64,000 bases of DNA from Eledone cirrhosa (taxonomy: Eukaryota). A program made the translations under genes and the position numbers. A model generated the notes under the pieces. That model had not been told where the DNA came from. It saw nothing but the letters and a program-made list of their open reading frames with translations, and ran no database searches. The stretch is taken from NCBI GenBank assembly GCA_964016885.1, contig OZ024763.1, positions 4,712,001 to 4,776,000 of the forward strand, read 5' to 3'. Shown in pieces: positions 3,430 to 60,629 of this stretch (positions are counted from its first letter, which is position 1; every line of letters starts with the position of its first letter).

Positions 3430-4270
3430 AACACCTCAGCAGCTGCCTAGTTGGGCTTGATAGTAGCACCGGCCCTTTAAGTATGACATACAAATATGTG
3501 ATCCTTTAAGGTTTAGTTATGAGTCTCTCTGAGCTCTGTGCCCTAAATGACTGCTTAGTTGGCTTTAATAGTAGCACATATCCAATATGTATGATATAAA
3601 ACAAGGATCCTTTAAGGTTCAGCAATGCATCTGCCTGAAGTCTGAGCCCTAGTTGGCCTTAATGGTGGCGCTGGCCCTATATAAAACAAGGATCTTTTAA
3701 GGTTCAGTAATGCATCTGCCTGAAGTCTGAGCCCTAGCTAGCTTCCCTAGTTGGCCTTAATGGTGGCGCTGACCCTATATAAAACAAGGATCCTTTAAGG
3801 TTCAGTAATGCATCTGCCTGAAGTCTGAGCCCTAGCTAGCTTCCCTAGTTGGCCTTAATGGTGGCGCTGGCCCTATATAAAACAAGGATCCTTTAAGGTT
3901 CAGTAATGCATCTGCCTGAAGTCTGAGCCCTAGCTAGCTTCCCTAGTTGTCCTTAATGGTGGCGCTGACCCTATATAAAACAAGGATCCTTTAAGGTTCA
4001 GTAATGCATCTGCCTGAAGTCTGAGCCCTAGCTAGCTTCCCTAGTTGTCCTTAATGGTGGCGCTGGCCCTATATAAAACAAGGATCCTTTAAGGTTCAGT
4101 AATGCATCTGCCTGAAGTCTGAGCCCTAGCTAGCTTCTCTAGTTGGCCTTAATGGTGGCGCTGACCCTATATAAAACAATGATCCTTTAAAAGGTTCAGT
4201 AATACATCTTTCTGAGCTTTGTGCCCTAAATGGCTGCCTAGTTGGCTTTAATAGTAGTGCCAGTCCTGAC
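3430..4270. repeat. 98-bp tandem minisatellite (~6 conserved units plus diverged flanking units)
   Basis: AAAACAAGGATC recurs at 3683, 3781, 3879, 3977, 4075 and 4173 (last copy with one mismatch). Confidence 0.9.
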
Positions 4271-19996: not shown

Positions 19997-20141
19997 ATCA
20001 AAAGATGGTTAAAGGAGTTCCATGTATTTTATTATGCGCATTTCAAAAACAAACATCATCATGCAATAATATTTGTGTTTTCATCAGATAAAACAGGAGG
20101 CCATGATATGAAGGCTAAAAAAACACTTGTGGATAGTGCAG

Positions 20142-23765: not shown

Positions 23766-23807
23766 CTTTATATATATAAAATGCCAGCACCAATAGTTTT
23801 GCAAGAG

Positions 23808-24024
23808 ATGTCAACATGAATGGATGGACCTGTCATTTTTATCTAAAGACATTTTTCCAATTCCATCCCGCCCGTTCCCTCAATGTATTTTATTTCTCAT
23901 TCTTTCTTCTGATGAAGGACTAGCGTCCGAAATGTTAAGACCCTCTTCCTGCTATATTAAGCGTTAACCTAATATATACCTTCCATATACTGTACCGATT
24001 GTGTTGTTATTTCTGTTTACCTTT

Positions 24025-24028
<4 letters not shown>
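23808..24028 (+). mobile_element. Family C PLE pLTR-like fragment with minimal HHR at 23905-23940 (second copy at 39833-40046)
   Basis: UCUU-CUGAUGA-A GGAC UAGC GUCC-GAAAUGUU|AAGA; the other copy has GAAACAUU, so the inferred consensus is GAAACGUU. Confidence 0.7.
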
Positions 24029-24064
<36 letters not shown>

Positions 24065-24145: not shown

Positions 24146-24259
24146 TACGTTATTCCGGGTTGAATCGGAGGTAACCACAGTAAGTAAGGTACTCAATACA
24201 TTGCAGAGATTCCTGATGATTTCTAAAGAATGAAACAGTTCTAGTCCTGTAGAATCTCA

Positions 24260-24263
<4 letters not shown>
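24146..24263. mobile_element. Family B element with intact HHR at 24206-24258 (+)
   Basis: GAGAUUC-CUGAUGA-U UUC UAAA GAA U-GAA ACAG UUCUAGUC CUGU A|GAAUCUC; 7-bp stem I; inverted tail upstream; TA flanks. Confidence 0.8.
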
Positions 24264-24317
<54 letters not shown>

Positions 24318-25529: not shown

Positions 25530-26606
25530 GCTATTTATATATATATATACAGAAGCAAAGCGTGCTCGATCATAGAGATGCGATGTTAAATATTATAGCG
25601 GAGTTAATATTTAAGGAGAGTTAAGTGCTGAAGGTGAGCAGAGCGGATATAATAAAAAAAATATATGGAGGAGAAACCAAGAAAAAAATAAAGGGCCGAT
25701 CATGAATCTCTTCTTATACCTCCAACCATTTTTCTTAAAGAATAAATGTATCATGAATGTGTAGCCTTGCTTTGCTGTCGTACGAACTTGGACTTTCCAT
25801 CCAGCAACATCTTTAAGGACAATAATTTATCGCTGATGAGTCTTATAAGTACATCTCTACTGTAGTATGTATACACACATATATGTCTACCTGTTGTATC
25901 ATAAATGTACTGGAAGACGAAACACGTGTAAGAATTAAATCTTGTTTTTAGATGTTTTGCTTTCTCCTGTGTGTGTGTGCATATATACATATACCTATGT
26001 ATATATGTATATATATATATATATATATTTATATGTGTACACAACAGAATAAATAGCTGGAATGTCTGGCATATTTCCACAGTCCTATTAATGGGATGTT
26101 AGTCGAACTTTCTTATTTATTTAGTTTATCAACTACTGGAGTCAGTGTAGGCTACTGCCATTTTCCCAGCCCCGGCAACCATAGCTACTTATACACACAC
26201 ACACACCATACGCACGCCCTTAGACATACACCCTTACACGCACACGCATCCTCACACACACCCATTACATACACTCTCTTACACACGCATTATCACACAC
26301 ACATCCTCAGACTCATCCTCACACGCCCTCACTAACACATACTCACAGGCTTCCTTACACAAACCCTCACACATATTCTCTTTGCCCCTTACACTCATCC
26401 CCACACTCGTACCTCACAAATGAAACGGAATCATCATAACTGCAATGACGCCACAACTGGACGTGTACTTTTTTTTTTTATCAACTTTGAAAATTATGCA
26501 AAGCAAAGTTGAACCCTTCAGGATTTGAACCGGGGACGCTGGACTGAACAACTCAGAGCATTCTATCCGACGTTCTAACAACTCCACCAACTTATATCGT
26601 CTTATA

Positions 26607-28880
26607 ATGATTGTTTCTACTTTAGGCACAAGGCCAGCAATTACCCCAGTGTATTACTGGTGCTTTATTTTATCAACCCTGTAATACTTGTTTCTACTTT
26701 TGGGGGCACAAGGCCAGCAATTAACCCCAGTGTATTACTGGTACTTTATTTTATCAACCCTGTAATAATTGTTTCTACTTTTGGCACAAGGCCAGCAATT
26801 ACCCCCAGTGTATTACTGGTGCTTTATTTCATCAACCCTGTAATAATTGTTTCTACTTTTGGGGGCACAAGGCCAGCAATTAACCCCCAGTGTATTACTG
26901 GTGCTTTATTTTATCAACCCTGTAATAATTGTTTCTACTTTAGGCACAAGGCCAGCAATTACCCCAGTGTATTACTGGTGCTTTATTTTATCAACCCTGT
27001 AATAATTGTTTCTACTTTAGGCACAAGGCCAGCAATTACCCCAGTGTATTACTGGTGCTTTATTTTATCAACCCTGTAATAATTGTTTCTACTTTAGGCA
27101 CAAGGCCAGCAATTACCCCAGTGTATTACTGGTACTTTATTTTATCAACCCTGTAATAATTGTTTCTACTTTTGGGGGCACAAGGCCAGCAATTACCCCA
27201 GTGTATTACTGGTGCTTTATTTTATCAACCCTGTAATAATTGTTTCTACTTTTGGCACAAGGCCAGCAATTTCCCCAGTGTATTACTGGTGCTTTATTTT
27301 ATCGACCCTGTAATAATTGTTTCTACTTTAGGCACAAGAGGCCAGCAATTACGCCAGTGTATTACTGGTACTTTATTTTATCAACCCTGTAATAATTGTT
27401 TCTACTTTTGGGGGCACAAGGCCAGCAATTAACCTCCAGTGTATTACTGGTGCTTTATTTTATCAACCCTGTAATAATTGTTTCTACTTTAGGCACAAGG
27501 CCAGCAATTACCCCAGTGTATTACTGGTGCTTTATTTTATCAACCCTGTAATAATTGTTTCTACTTTAGGCACAAGGCCAGCAATTAACCCCAGTGTATT
27601 ACTGGTACTTTATTTTATCGACCCTGTAATAATTGTTTCTACTTTTGGGGGCACAAGGCCAGCAATTACCCCAGTGTATTACTGGTGCTTTATTTTATCA
27701 ACCCTGTAATTATTATTTCTACTTTTGGCGTGGTGGATTGGCAGTATCGGTAGAAGGTCGGACGCCATGCTTTCCAGCATAGTTACGTCCCTTTACGATC
27801 TGAGTTCAAATCCCGCCGAGGTTGACTTTGCCTTTCATCCTTACGGGGTCGATAAAATAAAGTACCAGTAATGCACTGGGTAATTTGCTGGCCTTGTGCC
27901 TAAAGTAGAAACAATTATTTCTACTTTTGGCACAAGGCCAGCAATTACCTCCAGTGTATTACTGGTGCTTTATTTTATCAACCCTGTAATAATTGTTTCT
28001 ACTTTTGGCACAAGGCCAGCAATTACCCCAGTGTATTACTGGTGCTTTATTTTATCAACCCTGTAATAATTGTTTCTACTTTTGGCACAAGGCCAGCAAT
28101 TACCCCCAGTGTATTACTGGTGCTTTATTTTATCAACCCTGTAATAATTGTTTCTACTTTAGGCACAAGGCCAGCAATTACCTCAGTGTATTACTGGTGC
28201 TTTATTTTATCAACCCTGTAATAATTGTTTCTACTTTTGGCACAAGGCCAGCAATTACCTCAGTGTATTACTGGTGCTTTATTTTATCAACCCTGTAATA
28301 ATTGTTTCTACTTTAGGCACAAGGCCAGCAATTACCCCAGTGTATTACTGGTACTTTATTTTATCAACCCTGTAATAATTGTTTCTACTTTTGGGGGCAC
28401 AAGGCCAGCAATTAACCTCCAGTGTATTACTGGTGCTTTATTTTATCAACCCTGTAATAATTGTTTCTACTTTAGGCACAAGGCCAGCAATTACCCCAGT
28501 GTATTACTGGTGCTTTATTTTATCAACCTTGTAATAATTGTTTCTACTTTAGGCACAAGGCCAGCAATTACCCCAGTGTATTACTGGTGCTTTATTTTAT
28601 CAACCCTGTAATAATTGTTTCTATTTTAGGCACAAGGCCAGCAATTATCCCAGTGTATTACTGGTGCTTTATTTTATCAACCCTGTAATAATTGTTTCTA
28701 CTTTTGGCACAAGGCCAGCAATTACCCCCAGTGTATTACTGGTGCTTTACTTTATCGACCCCCGTAAGGATGAAAGGCAAAGTTAACCTCGGCGGGATTT
28801 GAGCTCAGATCATAAAGGGACGTAACTCTATGCTGCAAAGAAGGGCGTCCGACCCTCTACCGATACTGTTAGTCCACCGC
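26607..28880 (-). repeat. Minisatellite of ~25 x 76-80-bp SINE 3' ends, ending in a full SINE (28690-28880)
   Basis: Unit TAATAATTGTTTCTACTTTAGGCACAAGGCCAGCAATTACCCCAGTGTATTACTGGTGCTTTATTTTATCAACCCTG. Confidence 0.92.
27730..27913 (+). mobile_element. SINE family 1 inserted antisense into the SINE-tail array, with 18-bp TSD
   Basis: ATTATTTCTACTTTTGGC at 27712-27729 and 27914-27931. Confidence 0.88.
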
Positions 28881-32138: not shown

Positions 32139-32599
32139 CACATAAATAAATATATATATACATATACACACACATATATATATATATACACGCACACGCA
32201 CGCACACATACACACACACACATATATATATACATATATATATATAATGTACGTCTTTGTCTCTTCTTATCTTTCTGTCTATTTCTCCTTCTCTCCGTTA
32301 CTCCCCCCTCTCTGTCTCTCCCCCTCCCCCTCTGTCTCTCCCCCTCTCCCCCCTCTATGTCTCTCCCCCTCCCCCTCTGTCTCTCACCCGCTCCTCCTCT
32401 GTCTCTAATACCCCTCTCTCTCCCTCCCCCCTCTCTCTCACCCTCCCCCTCTCTCTCTATCTCTCTCCCTATCATATCTCATTGATTGATTTACTATATT
32501 CAGTCATAGAGTAACCGGAGAGAGGAGTGATTGGTGATTGATTGGATCTGAACTGGCAGAAACCTGAACTTAACGCACCTGAAGTTCAACTTAATAATG

Positions 32600-33250
32600 A
32601 TTTCTTTATTAACCACAAGGGTTTACATAAAGTAGACATTCAGGACACTGCAGGACAATACAGGACGGTACAAATGGGCATTTCTGCGTGTAAAGAACAA
32701 AAACAGAGGATGTAACAAAAAAATAACAATGAAAAATTCCCCAATAGGGGGGAGACTTCGGAGGGACATTTGTGGAGAAAGCCCAGTAAAAGGCCACAGT
32801 TACCCTGACCACCAAGGCAAGTGCCCTCTCCCAGTTTTCCACCTTTAATTTACAGATACGTACTTAATAATGTTTTCTTTATTAACCACAAGGGTTTACA
32901 TAAAGTAGACATTAAGGACACTGCAGGACAATACAGGACGGTACAAATGGGCATTTCTGCGTGTAAAAAAAACAGAGGTTGAAATAAAATAACAAAGAAA
33001 AATTCCCCAATAGGGGGGAGACTTCCGAGGGACATCTGTGGAGAAAGCCCATTAAAAGACCACAGTAGCCCTGACCACCAGGGCAAGTGTCCTCTCCCAG
33101 TTTTCCACCTTTAATTTACAGACACATACTCAGAGAAGGCCCATTCATTCGGGCCATACTTGCTTCTCTCACCCATCTTTCAACAAAATGCTGGGAAGAG
33201 AGCACTTCCCTCTCTACCCTGATTTTCCTTTTCAAATGAAATACGTACTT
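32600..33250 (-). mobile_element. Tandemly duplicated 3' end of a Tx1/L1-like LINE
   Basis: Two ~255-bp copies beginning TTTCTTTATTAACCACAAGGG; 33130-33245 is similar to the Tx1 ORF2 end at 37360-37480. Confidence 0.65.
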
Positions 33251-39808: not shown

Positions 39809-40043
39809 AATAATATATATATGTGTGTGTGTGTGTCAACATGAATGGACCTGTTATTTTTATCTAAAGACATTTTTTCCAATTCCAACCCGTCCGTCCC
39901 CTCAATCTATCTTATTTCTCATTCTGTCTTCCGATGAAGTACTAGCGTCCGAAACATTAAGACCCTCTTCCTGCTATATCAAGCTTTAACCTAATATATC
40001 CCTTCCATATATTGTATTGTGTTGTTATTTCTGTTTACCTTTT

Positions 40044-40166
<123 letters not shown>

Positions 40167-40825
40167 GTAATAATAATAAATTTGAAGACTAAAATCCAAA
40201 GAGGGCTTGATAAGGATAAATATATATCAAATATATAAGAACCGTAGAGCAAATATAAACTTTAATCTGTTATTTTAATAAATATATATATGTATATATA
40301 TACATATATGAGTTCGAAGCTCGAGAATTTATCCTTGATAGGATATTTCCGAAAACGAACGAAACCCTAAAGGGTAGAAACGTAATCCTGGTATGTGTAT
40401 ATGCATTTTTTCTTCTAACTTTAATTTTATACCTATGTGTGTATGGTTGACGATAAATTTAATCGATTTCCACGTGCTATTTAAATGGTGGGTAAATATT
40501 CTATAGCTGTTGATCGCGAATAGGTGGCTATCGTTTATTTATCTATTATTTCTTCACAGGTGCCTTTTAATCTTATAGCCTGGTTTAATTGTTTTTTTTT
40601 GTGTGGTTGATTATGCTAATTGGGAGAGAAAATTGAGTATATATCTTATCAAATGATTCTAAGGACATAATTTATAGTATATATATATATATATATATAT
40701 ATGAATATAGACATAGAATATTCGAAAATATTCTGTATGTTTATAATAAACATTTTGAAGACCTAATCGCTATAGAATAGAATACGTCACGTATTACAAT
40801 TAGATTCTCGATAAAAGCAAGGGAA

Positions 40826-40868
40826 GTAATCTACGCGTTTCATTCTCGTTAGAAATCATCAGGACTAC
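40826..40868 (-). ncRNA. Same HHR on the minus strand (also starting at 41136, 41446, 41756, 42066 and 42376)
   Basis: Exact reverse complement of 42682-42724. Confidence 0.85.
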
Positions 40869-42681
40869 ATATCCAGTGCTTTTATCGAGAATGACACAGC
40901 TAGAGACTTATAGAATACTTAGCTGTGTACAGGAACTGGTTTGAAAGAGCGGTTGCCGGTCCGGCAGAAATTAGAAATTGGAATAAATGCTCTGAAATAG
41001 CGATATATATGTGAATATAGACATAGAATATTCGAAAATATTCTGTATGTTTATAATAAACATTTTGAAGACCTAATCGCTATAGAATAGAATACGTCAC
41101 GTATTACAATTAGATTCTCGATAAAAGCAAGGGAAGTAATCTACGCGTTTCATTCTCGTTAGAAATCATCAGGACTACATATCCAGTGCTTTTATCGAGA
41201 ATGACACAGCTAGAGACTTATAGAATACTTAGCTGTGTACAGGAACTGGTTTGAAAGAGCGGTTGCCGGTCCGGCAGAAATTAGAAATTGGAATAAATGC
41301 TCTGAAATAGCGATATATATGTGAATATAGACATAGAATATTCGAAAATATTCTGTATGTTTATAATAAACATTTTGAAGACCTAATCGCTATAGAATAG
41401 AATACGTCACGTATTACAATTAGATTCTCGATAAAAGCAAGGGAAGTAATCTACGCGTTTCATTCTCGTTAGAAATCATCAGGACTACATATCCAGTGCT
41501 TTTATCGAGAATGACACAGCTAGAGACTTATAGAATACTTAGCTGTGTACAGGAACTGGTTTGAAAGAGCGGTTGCCGGTCCGGCAGAAATTAGAAATTG
41601 GAATAAATGCTCTGAAATAGCGATATATATGTGAATATAGACATAGAATATTCGAAAATATTCTGTATGTTTATAATAAACATTTTGAAGACCTAATCGC
41701 TATAGAATAGAATACGTCACGTATTACAATTAGATTCTCGATAAAAGCAAGGGAAGTAATCTACGCGTTTCATTCTCGTTAGAAATCATCAGGACTACAT
41801 ATCCAGTGCTTTTATCGAGAATGACACAGCTAGAGACTTATAGAATACTTAGCTGTGTACAGGAACTGGTTTGAAAGAGCGGTTGCCGGTCCGGCAGAAA
41901 TTAGAAATTGGAATAAATGCTCTGAAATAGCGATATATATGTGAATATAGACATAGAATATTCGAAAATATTCTGTATGTTTATAATAAACATTTTGAAG
42001 ACCTAATCGCTATAGAATAGAATACGTCACGTATTACAATTAGATTCTCGATAAAAGCAAGGGAAGTAATCTACGCGTTTCATTCTCGTTAGAAATCATC
42101 AGGACTACATATCCAGTGCTTTTATCGAGAATGACACAGCTAGAGACTTATAGAATACTTAGCTGTGTACAGGAACTGGTTTGAAAGAGCGGTTGCCGGT
42201 CCGGCAGAAATTAGAAATTGGAATAAATGCTCTGAAATAGCGATATATATGTGAATATAGACATAGAATATTCGAAAATATTCTGTATGTTTATAATAAA
42301 CATTTTGAAGACCTAATCGCTATAGAATAGAATACGTCACGTATTACAATTAGATTCTCGATAAAAGCAAGGGAAGTAATCTACGCGTTTCATTCTCGTT
42401 AGAAATCATCAGGACTACATATCCAGTGCTTTTATCGAGAATGACACAGCTAGAGACTTATAGAATACTTAGCTGTGTACAGGAACTGGTTTATTATAAA
42501 CATACAGAATATTTTCGAATATTCTATGTCTATATTCACATATATATCGCTATTTCAGAGCATTTATTCCAATTTCTAATTTCTGCCGGACCGGCAACCG
42601 CTCTTTCAAACCAGTTCCTGTACACAGCTAAGTATTCTATAAGTCTCTAGCTGTGTCATTCTCGATAAAAGCACTGGATAT

Positions 42682-42724
42682 GTAGTCCTGATGATTTCTA
42701 ACGAGAATGAAACGCGTAGATTAC
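42682..42724 (+). ncRNA. Minimal type I hammerhead ribozyme of the 310-nt unit (also 42992-43034 and 43302-43344)
   Basis: GUAGUC-CUGAUGA-U UUCU AACG AGAA U-GAA ACGCGU A|GAUUAC; stem I GUAGUC/GAUUAC; palindromic stem III; predicted GUA cleavage after 42718. Confidence 0.85.
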
Positions 42725-43595
42725 TTCCCTTGCTTTTATCGAGAATCTAATTGTAATACGTGACGTATTCTATTCTATAGCGATTAGGTCTTCAAAATGT
42801 TTATTATAAACATACAGAATATTTTCGAATATTCTATGTCTATATTCACATATATATCGCTATTTCAGAGCATTTATTCCAATTTCTAATTTCTGCCGGA
42901 CCGGCAACCGCTCTTTCAAACCAGTTCCTGTACACAGCTAAGTATTCTATAAGTCTCTAGCTGTGTCATTCTCGATAAAAGCACTGGATATGTAGTCCTG
43001 ATGATTTCTAACGAGAATGAAACGCGTAGATTACTTCCCTTGCTTTTATCGAGAATCTAATTGTAATACGTGACGTATTCTATTCTATAGCGATTAGGTC
43101 TTCAAAATGTTTATTATAAACATACAGAATATTTTCGAATATTCTATGTCTATATTCACATATATATCGCTATTTCAGAGCATTTATTCCAATTTCTAAT
43201 TTCTGCCGGACCGGCAACCGCTCTTTCAAACCAGTTCCTGTACACAGCTAAGTATTCTATAAGTCTCTAGCTGTGTCATTCTCGATAAAAGCACTGGATA
43301 TGTAGTCCTGATGATTTCTAACGAGAATGAAACGCGTAGATTACTTCCCTTGCTTTTATCGAGAATCTAATTGTAATACGTGACGTATTCTATTCTATAG
43401 CGATTAGGTCTTCAAAATGTTTATTATAAACATACAGAATATTTTCGAATATTCTATGTCTATATTCACATATATATCGCTATTTCAGAGCATTTATTCC
43501 AATATATATATATATATATACATATTAATTCAAAATATTAATAAATATAGACATTCACTTAATCAAAATATATTATATATATATATATATATATA

Positions 43596-49487: not shown

Positions 49488-49567
49488 CACATGTGTGTGA
49501 GATGATTGTGAGTATGTGTGTATGGAGGTGAGTGTTGTGGTTGTATTTGGTCACTTAGCGGAAAGAT

Positions 49568-51605
49568 ATGTACATGAGTGCCGTGGATTGGCAGAATCGG
49601 TAGAGGGTCGGACGCCATGCTTTGCAGCGAAGAGTTACGGCCCTTTATGGTCTGAGTTCAAATCCCGCCGAGGTTAACTTTGCCTTTCATCCTTATGGGG
49701 TCGATAAAATAAAGTACCAGTCACGCACTGGGGTCGATTTAATCGACTTTCCCCTCCCCCAAATTACTGGCCTTGTGCCTATATAAGAAGCCATTATGTA
49801 CATGAGTGCCGTGGATTGGCAGAATCGGTAGAGGGTCGGACGCCATGCTTTGCAGCGAAGAGTTACGGCCCTTTATGGTCTGAGTTCAAATCCCGCCGAG
49901 GTTAACTTTGCCTTTCATCCTTATGGGGTCGATAAAATAAAGTACCAGTCACGCACTGGGGTCGATTTAATCGACTTTCCCCTCCCCCAAATTACTGGCC
50001 TTGTGCCTATATAAGAAGCCATTATGTACATGAGTGCCGTGGATTGGCAGAATCGGTAGAGGGTCGGACGCCATGCTTTGCAGCGAAGAGTTACGGCCCT
50101 TTATGGTCTGAGTTCAAATCCCGCCGAGGTTAACTTTGCCTTTCATCCTTATGGGGTCGATAAAATAAAGTACCAGTCACGCACTGGGGTCGATTTAATC
50201 GACTTTCCCCTCCCCCAAATTACTGGCCTTGTGCCTATATAAGAAGCCATTATGTACATGAGTGCCGTGGATTGGCAGAATCGGTAGAGGGTCGGACGCC
50301 ATGCTTTGCAGCGAAGAGTTACGGCCCTTTATGGTGTGAGTTCAAATCCCGCCGAGGTTAACTTTGCCTTTCATCCTTATGGGGTCGATAAAATAAAGTA
50401 CCAGTCACGCACTGGGGTCGATTTAATCGACTTTCCCCTCCCCCAAATTACTGGCCTTGTGCCTATATAAGAAGCCATTATGTACATGAGTGCCGTGGAT
50501 TGGCAGAATCGGTAGAGGGTCGGACGCCATGCTTTGCAGCGAAGAGTTACGGCCCTTTATGGTGTGAGTTCAAATCCCGCCGAGGTTAACTTTGCCTTTC
50601 ATCCTTATGGGGTCGATAAAATAAAGTACCAGTCACGCACTGGGGTCGATTTAATCGACTTTCCCCTCCCCCAAATTACTGGCCTTGTGCCTATATAAGA
50701 AGCCATTATGTACATGAGTGCCGTGGATTGGCAGAATCGGTAGAGGGTCGGACGCCATGCTTTGCAGCGAAGAGTTACGGCCCTTTATGGTGTGAGTTCA
50801 AATCCCGCCGAGGTTAACTTTGCCTTTCATCCTTATGGGGTCGATAAAATAAAGTACCAGTCACGCACTGGGGTCGATTTAATCGACTTTCCCCTCCCCC
50901 AAATTACTGGCCTTGTGCCTATATAAGAAGCCATTATGTACATGAGTGCCGTGGATTGGCAGAATCGGTAGAGGGTCGGACGCCATGCTTTGCAGCGAAG
51001 AGTTACGGCCCTTTATGGTCTGAGTTCAAATCCCGCCGAGGTTAACTTTGCCTTTCATCCTTATGGGGTCGATAAAATAAAGTACCAGTCACGCACTGGG
51101 GTCGATTTAATCGACTTTCCCCTCCCCCAAATTACTGGCCTTGTGCCTATATAAGAAGCCATTATGTACATGAGTGCCGTGGATTGGCAGAATCGGTAGA
51201 GGGTCGGACGCCATGCTTTGCAGCGAAGAGTTACGGCCCTTTATGGTGTGAGTTCAAATCCCGCCGAGGTTAACTTTGCCTTTCATCCTTATGGGGTCGA
51301 TAAAATAAAGTACCAGTCACGCACTGGGGTCGATTTAATCGACTTTCCCCTCCCCCAAATTACTGGCCTTGTGCCTATATAAGAAGCCATTATGTACATG
51401 AGTGCCGTGGATTGGCAGAATCGGTAGAGGGTCGGACGCCATGCTTTGCAGCGAAGAGTTACGGCCCTTTATGGTCTGAGTTCAAATCCCGCCGAGGTTA
51501 ACTTTGCCTTTCATCCATACGAGGTCGATAAAATAAAGTACCAGTAATACACTGAGGTAATTGCTGGCCTTGTGCCTAAAGTAGAAACAATTATGTTCAT
51601 GAGTG
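49568..51605 (+). repeat. Tandem array of 9 full SINEs, period 228 bp, each separated by TATGTACATGAGTG
   Basis: TACATGAGTG at 49571, 49799, 50027, 50255, 50483, 50711, 50939, 51167 and 51395. Confidence 0.93.
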
Positions 51606-59790: not shown

Positions 59791-59873
<83 letters not shown>

Positions 59874-59882
59874 TAGTATTGG

Positions 59883-60152
59883 TGCTCTGAAATAGCGATA
59901 TATACATGAATGTATGTACAGTATATTTGGCAATATACTGTATGGTTAATTAAAAACATTTAGAAGACCATTCACTATGAGTTTTAAAGTAGTGACTACG
60001 TCACTTACTTATTCTCGGCAAAAACAAAGAAGAGTGATCGACAGTCTGTTTCTCGCTCGTTATTGGTTATCAAGACCACTCACCCTTTTGCTTCTGTATA
60101 ATAGAATTCAAGTAATATTTAAGAGCTGATTAAAAAGATAGTTTGCCGGTCC
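59883..60152 (-). mobile_element. Diverged monomer related to the 310-bp retrozyme-like unit; HHR-like fold at 60032-60081
   Basis: Shares TGCTCTGAAATAGCGATATATA, AAACATTT.GAAGACC, TACGTCAC, ATTCTCG and TTGCCGGTCC in the same order. Confidence 0.7.
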
Positions 60153-60629
60153 AGTTAAATATTAGCTCCACTTTAATATTTAATATTGCTTCTTTAGGCA
60201 TTGAGCACGCTTCGCGCTATTTAAGGCATCTAACATAATGTATCATAATATCTTCTCCTCTGAACTTACGATGTATTCTATTTTTAACAAGAATCTGAAG
60301 CCCCTTACAGTAGTGTTTAACTAAACGGTCGAATTAATTAATTTGGTAAATCCTGTGGTAGTTCCACTAAAGTTTCCAAGTGTAACAATTTACGGAGTAT
60401 ATATAGAAATTTACAAAATTATTATTTAAAACATTACATTCCAGAAGAGTGAAAATAGCATTTATTGCATAACACTGACGCGTGTTTCTCCGTATGTGTT
60501 ATATATATCAGTCTAGGATCGCTAATATTTGACTATTTCCATCAAATTAAATCGTATCTAACTACTTTAAAAAAATCATATGTAGACACAACAAATTTTC
60601 AAAGTGGAATAAGACATTTTTCACATAAA

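What the first reader, a model, noticed from the sequence alone, without database searches (positions are those of the whole stretch)
40702..43503. Head-to-head concatemer of a 310-nt hammerhead-ribozyme RNA: probable genomic imprint of a retrozyme-type circular RNA
Seen: exact 310-bp period, apparently identical units, no ORF, and one complete type I HHR per unit (CUGAUGA, stem II, GAAA, palindromic stem III ACGCGU, GUA site, 6-bp stem I). There are 6 on the minus strand and 3 on the plus strand, and the array is flanked by (TA)n. Known: metazoan non-LTR retrozymes are tandem repeats a few hundred nt long whose HHRs release monomers that circularise. Minimal HHRs with palindromic stem III work as dimers, and PLE machinery is the proposed mobiliser. 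Inference: a recent single insertion made by rolling-circle reverse transcription of a 310-nt circRNA. I do not recognise this family, so it may be undescribed.
Basis: partly seen in the sequence, partly recalled or inferred. Interest (0 to 1): 0.92.

Follow-up and report, generated by a model that had tools for sequence, protein, structure and literature searches.

The report
Ribozyme RNA-circle repeat with two-armed insertions
This is one copy of a young, high-copy mobile repeat whose 310-letter unit carries a self-cutting ribozyme, and its insertions follow such a strict two-armed pattern that they look like DNA footprints of a borrowed reverse transcriptase running round a small RNA circle from both cut ends of the target.

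Summary
Observation confirmed: 9 identical 310-bp units, 6 minus then 3 plus, each with a type I hammerhead, inside (TA)n. It is one of about 1,500 loci of a young non-LTR retrozyme family, a known class.

What looks new is the anatomy of 94 insertions. All 82 two-armed ones are head-to-head. In 77 of 77 with both ends seen, one arm ends at unit nt 130-139 and the other about 35 nt further on, the Penelope-like-element (PLE) 'tail'. An autonomous PLE here follows the same rule. Both arms carry the same haplotype in 51 of 52 (16% across loci). 850 crossings of the cleavage site show no indel. Locus-wide ribozyme variants are 9 of 9 tolerated; single-unit ones are 8 of 9 damaging.

Best reading: self-cleaved monomers circularise, and a PLE enzyme primes twice on one circle and rolls. 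Cleavage, circles and the partner PLE are not shown. The scan noted similar ribozyme-free arrays in another genome (e1-7881736, unchecked).

The parts
40678..40701 (.). left (TA)n target tract
   Evidence: sequence, TRF
40702..42492 (-). arm 1: 5.8 units, outer end at the 'short' start site (unit nt 130, numbering from the cleavage site), inner end at unit nt 200
40826..40868 (-). type I hammerhead 1 of 6 on minus; the others follow at +310: 41136-41178, 41446-41488, 41756-41798, 42066-42108, 42376-42418
42489..42492 (.). inversion junction, 4 letters shared by both arms (microhomology)
42489..43503 (+). arm 2: 3.3 units, inner end at unit nt 81, outer end at the 'tail' start site (unit nt 165)
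42682..42724 (+). type I hammerhead: 6-bp stem I, core, 4-bp stem II with U.U at its base, palindromic stem III, cleavage after 42718; also 42992-43034 and 43302-43344
42719..43028 (+). predicted monomer (310 nt) between two cleavage sites; rod-like fold, z -3.9 linear, -4.5 circular
42777..42863 (+). structured domain conserved with the older sister family: closing helix 42777-42782 with 42858-42863, hairpin 42816-42835; candidate binding site of the reverse transcriptase (inferred)
42848..42857 (+). short start site (unit nt 130-139), 9 of 10 letters able to pair with a (TA)n primer
42881..42890 (+). tail start sites (unit nt 163-172)
43469..43503 (+). 35-nt tail, present at this outer end only
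43504..43520 (.). right (AT)n target tract
   Evidence: sequence

Best explanation
A young non-LTR retrozyme family that parasitises PLE machinery. (1) Tandem arms are transcribed (inferred; promoter unknown). (2) Neighbouring ribozymes pair through the palindromic stem III as double hammerheads and release 310-nt monomers (structure computed, activity inferred). (3) Monomers are ligated into circles (inferred from the class, PMC7229834). (4) A PLE RT/GIY-YIG enzyme, probably a dimer, binds the conserved domain at nt 59-145 and cuts both strands of a (TA)n tract. The two DNA 3' ends prime at two fixed sites about 35 nt apart on the same RNA (sites shown; enzyme and single template inferred). 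(5) Each RT copies round the circle for a variable number of turns. (6) The two cDNA ends are joined by microhomology, giving a head-to-head array with a tail at one end (junctions shown). The longest arrays have grown further afterwards by local duplication (shown for 4).
For: All 82 two-armed elements of 94 are minus-then-plus; 77 of 77 with both ends seen pair a short end with a tail end. One end was preselected by the search pattern in 83 of 94, so the other end is the test. Divergent pairs of an autonomous hammerhead-bearing PLE here follow the same rule in 12 of 13 (ends about 21 and 89 nt after the cut, pairs counted by hand). PMC8557442 describes the inverted copy, one-sided 30-40-bp tail and (TA)n bias for PLEs. 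PMC11167929 shows a PLE protein cutting and extending both strands and starting at two adjacent internal RNA sites. One template: same majority haplotype in both arms in 51 of 52, against 16% across loci; 13 of 19 of those haplotypes are private. Monomer bottleneck: differences from the window's unit are in all units of an element 136 times and in a subset 17 times; in the 67 elements with at least 4 units and no arm of 14 or more, 54 of 59 minority variants are single. Closed template: both start sites lie within 172 nt of the cut, yet 160 of 171 arms are longer than 175 nt; only 2 of 124 inner ends lie within 5 nt of the cut; 0 of 850 crossings carry an indel. Ribozyme under selection: 9 of 9 element-wide substitutions are tolerated, where 34 of 129 possible ones are (p 6e-6); 8 of 9 single-unit ones are damaging. 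Sense-strand fold under selection: 9 of 13 element-wide variants at paired sites keep the pair, where 77 of 456 possible ones do. Junctions share 2 or more letters in 33 of 49 without filler (18% for random joins); 13 have filler. Two ribozyme pieces co-fold as a double hammerhead, -22.3 against 2 x -8.1 kcal/mol.
Against: No RNA, cleavage or circle shown. 8 of 9 predicted Xenopus retrozyme dimers did not cleave in vitro (bioRxiv 10.64898/2026.07.22.740005). In PMC11167929 ribozyme cleavage was not needed for insertion, start sites did not differ between strands, and priming needed no homology, whereas the short site here can pair with (TA)n. The partner PLE was not found: best terminal match p 0.029 in 12 tests. 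L104 and L160 carry one variant in the same turn of both arms and in no other turn, which fits a multimeric template or gene conversion better than a monomer circle. L091 switches allele inside one arm; L096 has one discordant unit. Four long arrays (M112, M081b, M080, L082) show recurrent subset variants, i.e. local duplication. Sibling circles cut from one transcript would also give matching arms. All 93 comparison loci come from the first 164 Mb of one contig.
Confidence: 0.68

Rival explanations
1. Same PLE double priming, but the template is an uncleaved linear multimer, or a terminally redundant RNA copied reiteratively in a telomerase-like way; the circle is a by-product.
For: L104 and L160 share a one-turn variant in both arms. 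Cleavage was dispensable for insertion in PMC11167929. Axolotl accumulates multimeric retrozyme RNA (PMC7229834).
Against: Multimer templates should pass on unit-specific variants turn by turn, but only 4 of 53 testable calls (2 events) do so. Variants are instead swept to all units, 136 against 17. An intact ribozyme is selected, which an uncleaved template would not need.
Confidence: 0.12
2. One priming event on a circle; the cDNA folds back, is copied into the second arm, and the endonuclease resolves the hairpin at the second fixed site.
For: Explains identical haplotypes without a second RT. Some junctions use internal inverted repeats, with overlaps of 16-48 letters in 4 of 62. PMC8557442 suggests that the tail comes from endonuclease resolution. 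Short-end-only elements (10) outnumber tail-only ones (2, one at an assembly gap) (sampling partly enriched for them).
Against: Arm lengths are uncorrelated (rho 0.15, p 0.24) and neither class is the longer: short-end arm longer in 28 of 63. Only 2 of 61 testable minority calls (1 event) are mirrored about the junction. Two start sites were seen directly in vitro (PMC11167929).
Confidence: 0.11
3. Short PLE-type insertions that grew afterwards by unequal crossover (satellite model favoured in the discussion of bioRxiv 10.64898/2026.07.22.740005).
For: Local duplications are visible in the longest arrays, up to 45 units in one arm. Very fast early expansion would also look homogeneous.
Against: Minority variants are star-like: 54 of 59 single, p 6e-8 against a 60% share. 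28 of 67 elements, up to 18 units, have no internal substitution. Inner ends are near-uniform round the unit, p 0.25. The older sister copies seen are short, about 1-2 units per arm. It does not explain selection on the ribozyme.
Confidence: 0.07
4. Assembly or polishing artefact.
For: Perfect inverted tandem arrays are hard to assemble; one locus (L078) abuts an N gap; no public contig spans the array.
Against: Locus-private haplotypes (23 of 33), fixed end registers and identical rules in 94 elements; the unit is held by runs of 4 studies.
Confidence: 0.01

Closest known systems
Metazoan non-LTR retrozymes (Cervera and de la Pena 2020, PMC7229834; mussel, coral, axolotl)
   Same: Non-coding tandem unit of 150-450 bp, low GC, one type I hammerhead per unit, self-paired predicted circle, co-occurring PLEs. 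The ribozyme joins the 1-bp palindromic stem III of axolotl HHR_Amex1 with the U.U at the base of stem II of HHR_Amex2.
   Different: No inverted two-armed insertion, fixed start sites, tail or microsatellite target in the main text ('inverted' and 'microsatellite' 0 occurrences; supplement unreadable). No sequence comparison with those families was possible.
Xenopus and other vertebrate non-LTR retrozymes (bioRxiv 10.64898/2026.07.22.740005)
   Same: Proposed non-autonomous derivatives of PLE pseudo-LTRs.
   Different: Link rests on homology and co-occurrence; tandem growth is discussed as local amplification; 'tail', 'octopus' and 'mollus' have 0 occurrences (supplements closed). Here the link is the insertion anatomy; homology to a PLE is limited to 26 of 28 ribozyme letters.
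Endonuclease-bearing PLEs (PMC8557442; PAc in PMC11167929)
   Same: Inverted 5'-truncated copy, 30-40-nt tail at one end, (TA)n or AT-rich target, two internal start sites.
   Different: No ORF; endless 310-nt repeat instead of partial tandems; short site can pair with the target.
Twin-primed L1 insertions (recalled, no call)
   Same: Two primings on one RNA give head-to-head arms joined by microhomology.
   Different: L1 primes at a poly(A) end and at a variable internal site; here both sites are fixed and internal, and both arms are multimers.

Membership tests
non-LTR retrozyme | tandem unit of 150-450 bp, dimers to multimers | tested here: met
   310 bp; 845 units in 94 elements
non-LTR retrozyme | type I hammerhead motif in each unit | tested here: met
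   9 of 9 in the window; fits the canonical description in PMC4209133; below Rfam's gathering score
non-LTR retrozyme | low GC, no protein, no LTR | tested here: met
   GC 34.5%, longest ATG frame 30 codons; ends abut microsatellite. PBS and PPT were not searched for separately.
non-LTR retrozyme | dispersed copies at many loci | tested here: met
   760 forward tail ends, 619 forward short ends
non-LTR retrozyme | highly self-paired monomer | tested here: met
   z -3.9 (1 of 100 shuffles as good); circular z -4.5
non-LTR retrozyme | self-cleavage in vitro | not testable with these tools
   indirect only: selection on the motif, double-hammerhead co-fold
non-LTR retrozyme | expressed as linear and circular RNA | not testable with these tools
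   only contigs of runs of unrecorded kind were available
non-LTR retrozyme | large target-site duplication when present | tested here: inconclusive
   ends lie in (TA)n, so duplications cannot be read
non-LTR retrozyme | co-occurrence with autonomous PLEs | tested here: met
   several young RT + GIY-YIG families
autonomous PLE | ORF with RT and GIY-YIG endonuclease | tested here: not met
   no ORF in the unit
PLE-type insertion (works like) | inverted 5'-truncated copy and 30-40-nt tail at one end | tested here: met
   82 of 94 two-armed; 77 of 77 short plus tail
PLE-type insertion (works like) | microsatellite target | tested here: met
   153 of 171 outer ends run into TA-type repeats (one end preselected in most); all 11 unselected loci by eye
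derivative of a PLE pseudo-LTR | homology of the unit to the terminal repeat of an autonomous PLE | tested here: inconclusive
   only 26 of 28 ribozyme letters shared with one PLE; no significant match to 6 termini; not all PLE families were sampled
viroid-like RNA replicon | no DNA form; RNA-to-RNA replication | tested here: not met
   thousands of genomic copies; RNA replication itself not testable

The most novel reading that the evidence does not exclude
About 1,500 haplotype-barcoded insertions record an undescribed integration pathway. A dimeric PLE enzyme opens both strands of a (TA)n tract, primes at two fixed sites on one 310-nt circular RNA, and runs two rolling-circle reverse transcriptions whose ends are then joined. 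This would be genomic evidence that retrozyme arrays arrive ready-made from circles, and it would explain the inverted and tailed structure of PLE insertions in general as obligate double priming on one RNA.
Probability: 0.55. Interest if true: 0.82.

Novelty: new variant of a known kind. Interest (0 to 1): 0.66.

Why it matters
How retrozymes are copied into genomes (rolling circle or local amplification, and by which enzyme) has been a hypothesis since the class was named. How PLEs make their inverted, tailed insertions is called undefined in PMC8557442. This family addresses both. It is very young (0.03% single-unit differences) and abundant. Its natural haplotypes tag which RNA made which arm, and its start sites are mapped to a few bases. 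A 310-nt circle, a (TA)n target and several young intact PLE ORFs in the same genome make the model testable with the existing in vitro PLE assay. An RT that writes kilobase concatemers from a small circle into microsatellites is also of interest as a tool.

Tried and rejected
DNA search of the own genome with the unit found nothing, not even itself, because common words are skipped; patterns were used instead.

Expression: no RNA holder listed. The 4 runs laid are contigs of unrecorded kind, and a 340-nt closed contig arises from tandem DNA as well, so this is no evidence on circles.

Rfam gave no hit at gathering level.

An apparent excess of T>C among single-unit changes (12 against 2 A>G) did not hold after removing clusters and adding 20 loci (10 against 5); dropped. 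A-to-I editing as the source of element-wide A>G changes (8-9 sites against 3 T>C): 0 of 3 new sites in the replication set were A>G, and G.U tolerance explains the rest; not claimed.

Partner PLE: no significant match of the unit, beyond the ribozyme core, to 46 GIY-YIG loci, 16 loci of the hammerhead PLE, one further PLE locus or 6 termini. More distant PLE families were not read. A genome-wide count of divergent against convergent junctions was not obtained.

An ORF next to L078 is an unrelated element behind an N gap. A 272-bp filler in L082 was read by eye only. No tRNA gene in the window. Host taxon was not established (uninformative); 'octopus-like' is recalled from repeat content and genome size.

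PMC5785218 is not held; only its title was seen.

Full report
Observation. The array is as described. A minus arm (40702-42492) and a plus arm (42489-43503) match one 310-bp unit at every base, share 4 letters at the junction and sit in (TA)n. Each unit has a type I hammerhead with a 6-bp stem I, a 4-bp stem II with U.U at its base, and a stem III of 1 bp closed by a palindromic tetraloop. Rfam gives only HH9 at E 0.5. PMC4209133 (passages read) describes this architecture as the canonical metazoan type that cleaves as a dimer. PMC7229834 (parts 2-4 of 6 and passages read; supplement unreadable) reports both weak features, in separate axolotl ribozymes that cleave well as dimers. Two ribozyme pieces co-fold as a double hammerhead. 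The monomer folds as a rod, z -3.9 linear and -4.5 circular.

Family. The window lies on contig C24 of a 3.0-Gb genome. The exact 43-nt ribozyme occurs 4,033 times. End-anchored patterns give 760 forward tail ends and 619 forward short ends; reverse matches are counted several times each. The listing shows 53 distinct tail ends in the first 106 Mb of C1 (counted by hand). Both figures point to about 1,500 loci (inference). I read 94 elements: the window; 10 from the first 100 ribozyme matches; 46 chosen by a tail end; 17 by a short end (7 of them because no tail partner was listed); and 20 further short ends taken in order as a replication set. All 93 come from the first 164 Mb of C1.

Anatomy. 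82 of 94 are two-armed, all minus-then-plus. In all 77 with both ends in view, one arm ends at unit nt 130-139 and the other at 163-172. 12 are single arms: 10 short-ended (one with an 11-nt tail stub) and 2 tail-ended (one at an N gap). Inner ends are near-uniform round the unit (p 0.25). They share 2 or more letters in 33 of 49 unfilled junctions (18% expected); 13 have filler (first 74 elements). Arm lengths (median about 1.1 kb, longest 14 kb) are uncorrelated. The short site can pair with a (TA)n primer over 9 of 10 letters; the tail sites over 1-4.

This is the PLE signature. PMC8557442 (passages read) describes an inverted truncated copy, a 30-40-bp tail at one end and (TA)n bias. PMC11167929 (parts 1-2 of 4 read) shows a PLE protein, predicted to be a dimer, that cuts and extends both strands and starts at two adjacent internal sites whose spacing is the tail. 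The genome holds several young PLE families with RT and C-terminal GIY-YIG. One of them carries a hammerhead that shares 26 of 28 core and stem II letters with the unit (4,855 exact copies). Its PLE status rests on weak GIY-YIG hits, an RT motif seen by eye and 36% identity to a second family; clade names would be recalled. Its divergent pairs show short plus tail in 12 of 13. A second PLE (L117) has the same form with a 39-nt tail.

Template. 84 elements with enough cover fall into 33 haplotypes, 23 private. Differences from the window's unit are in every unit of an element 136 times and in a subset 17 times. Both arms agree in 51 of 52, against 16% across loci. In arrays under 14 units per arm, 54 of 59 minority variants are single. 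So each insertion went through one unit-length sequence and reached its length at or near birth. A cleaved linear monomer would give arms of at most 172 nt ending at the cut; instead 160 of 171 arms are longer, 2 of 124 inner ends lie near the cut and 0 of 850 crossings have an indel. An uncleaved multimer would not need a ribozyme, yet element-wide ribozyme changes are 9 of 9 tolerated (26% expected) while single-unit ones are 8 of 9 damaging. My tolerance table is structural, not measured, and haplotypes are related, so sites rather than loci were counted. Element-wide changes at paired sites keep the pair in 9 of 13 (17% expected), mostly as G.U, which points to the ribozyme strand as the folded molecule. 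A circle is the simplest template that fits all of this.

Results against. L104 and L160 share one variant in the same turn of both arms only. L106 and L081b share one in different turns. L091 switches allele within an arm and L096 has one odd unit. These fit multimeric templates, a second template or gene conversion. Four long arrays show local duplication. In the literature, 8 of 9 Xenopus dimers did not cleave (bioRxiv 10.64898/2026.07.22.740005, parts 1-3 of 5 read; supplements closed), and PLE insertion in vitro did not need cleavage (PMC11167929). No RNA evidence was available and the partner PLE was not identified.

Sister family. An older family of about 320 nt, 65% identical over most of the unit, has a different ribozyme and the same two-armed form. 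The region around the start sites is the best conserved part (75-82%). It holds a closing helix and a hairpin with 2 pairs changed on both sides (3 cells; covariation score reached by 1 of 500 shuffles, a control that ignores relatedness). I infer that this is the binding site of the enzyme.

Comparison and novelty. The element meets every testable feature of non-LTR retrozymes and fails as an autonomous PLE; it works like a PLE insertion. Paper searches found no report of two-armed, tailed retrozyme insertions or of a cephalopod retrozyme. Most were judged from listings; PMC7761336 was read as passages; PMC5785218 is not held. Unread supplements of PMC7229834 and of the 2026 preprint may list this host or such loci. 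The host taxon is not established; octopus-like is recalled. The scan's index had nothing on this sequence or genome and one analogous ribozyme-free case elsewhere, which I did not check.

Verdict. Real, a new family of a known class, with an insertion anatomy not found in print that turns the rolling-circle and PLE-partner hypotheses into precise tests. Shown: unit, ribozyme motif, family size, fixed start sites, end pairing, haplotype sweeps, selection. Inferred: cleavage, circle, enzyme, single template. Interest 0.66.

Noticed in passing
window 59870-60160 (-); L033 5370-5725; L042 2433-2864; L144 3881-4189; L167-L172: Older sister retrozyme family, about 320 nt, 65% identical, with a different hammerhead and the same two-armed short-plus-tail insertions.
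   Followed up: partly
window 24146-24265; L126 4125-4330; L132 878-8182: Terminus of an autonomous PLE family (758-codon frames common) whose hammerhead shares core and stem II, including the U.U, with the unit; tail about 70 nt.
   Followed up: partly
window 23800-24030 and 39840-40045: Decayed pseudo-LTR-like repeat with a minimal hammerhead-like motif, ending in (TA)n.
   Followed up: no
L118, L119, L124, L127, L130, L193 (3' ends): Another PLE family carries a hammerhead-like motif with U.U at the base of stem II and a 6-nt palindromic stem III, the same design as the unit's.
   Followed up: no
window 49567-51545: 8.7 tandem copies of a 228-bp SINE-like unit, identical but for one site in 4 of the first 8; no ribozyme, one orientation. 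A ribozyme-free concatemer of unknown origin.
   Followed up: partly
window 3647-4252, 26605-28761, 32589-33130: Further tandem arrays of 98, 77 (from the 3' part of the same SINE-like repeat) and 266 bp.
   Followed up: no
L144 3881-4400: A sister-family arm is joined by 3-4 shared letters to an inverted arm of a PLE; a chimera or a nested insertion, single case.
   Followed up: no
L082 1170-1441: 272 bp of GC-rich foreign sequence captured between the two arms.
   Followed up: no
L112 + L147 (G000:C1:97461509-97476480): Longest array seen: 45 units in one arm with recurrent variants, a locus turning into satellite DNA.
   Followed up: partly
L091, L096 (unit nt 276): One stem I position varies on several haplotype backgrounds and switches inside arms; unexplained.
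   Followed up: partly
L168 about 1050-1500: A further two-armed repeat with a hammerhead-like core, unrelated to the unit.
   Followed up: no
window 20030-20095 (-): One more match to the generic type I hammerhead scan, also seen in L125 and L126.
   Followed up: no
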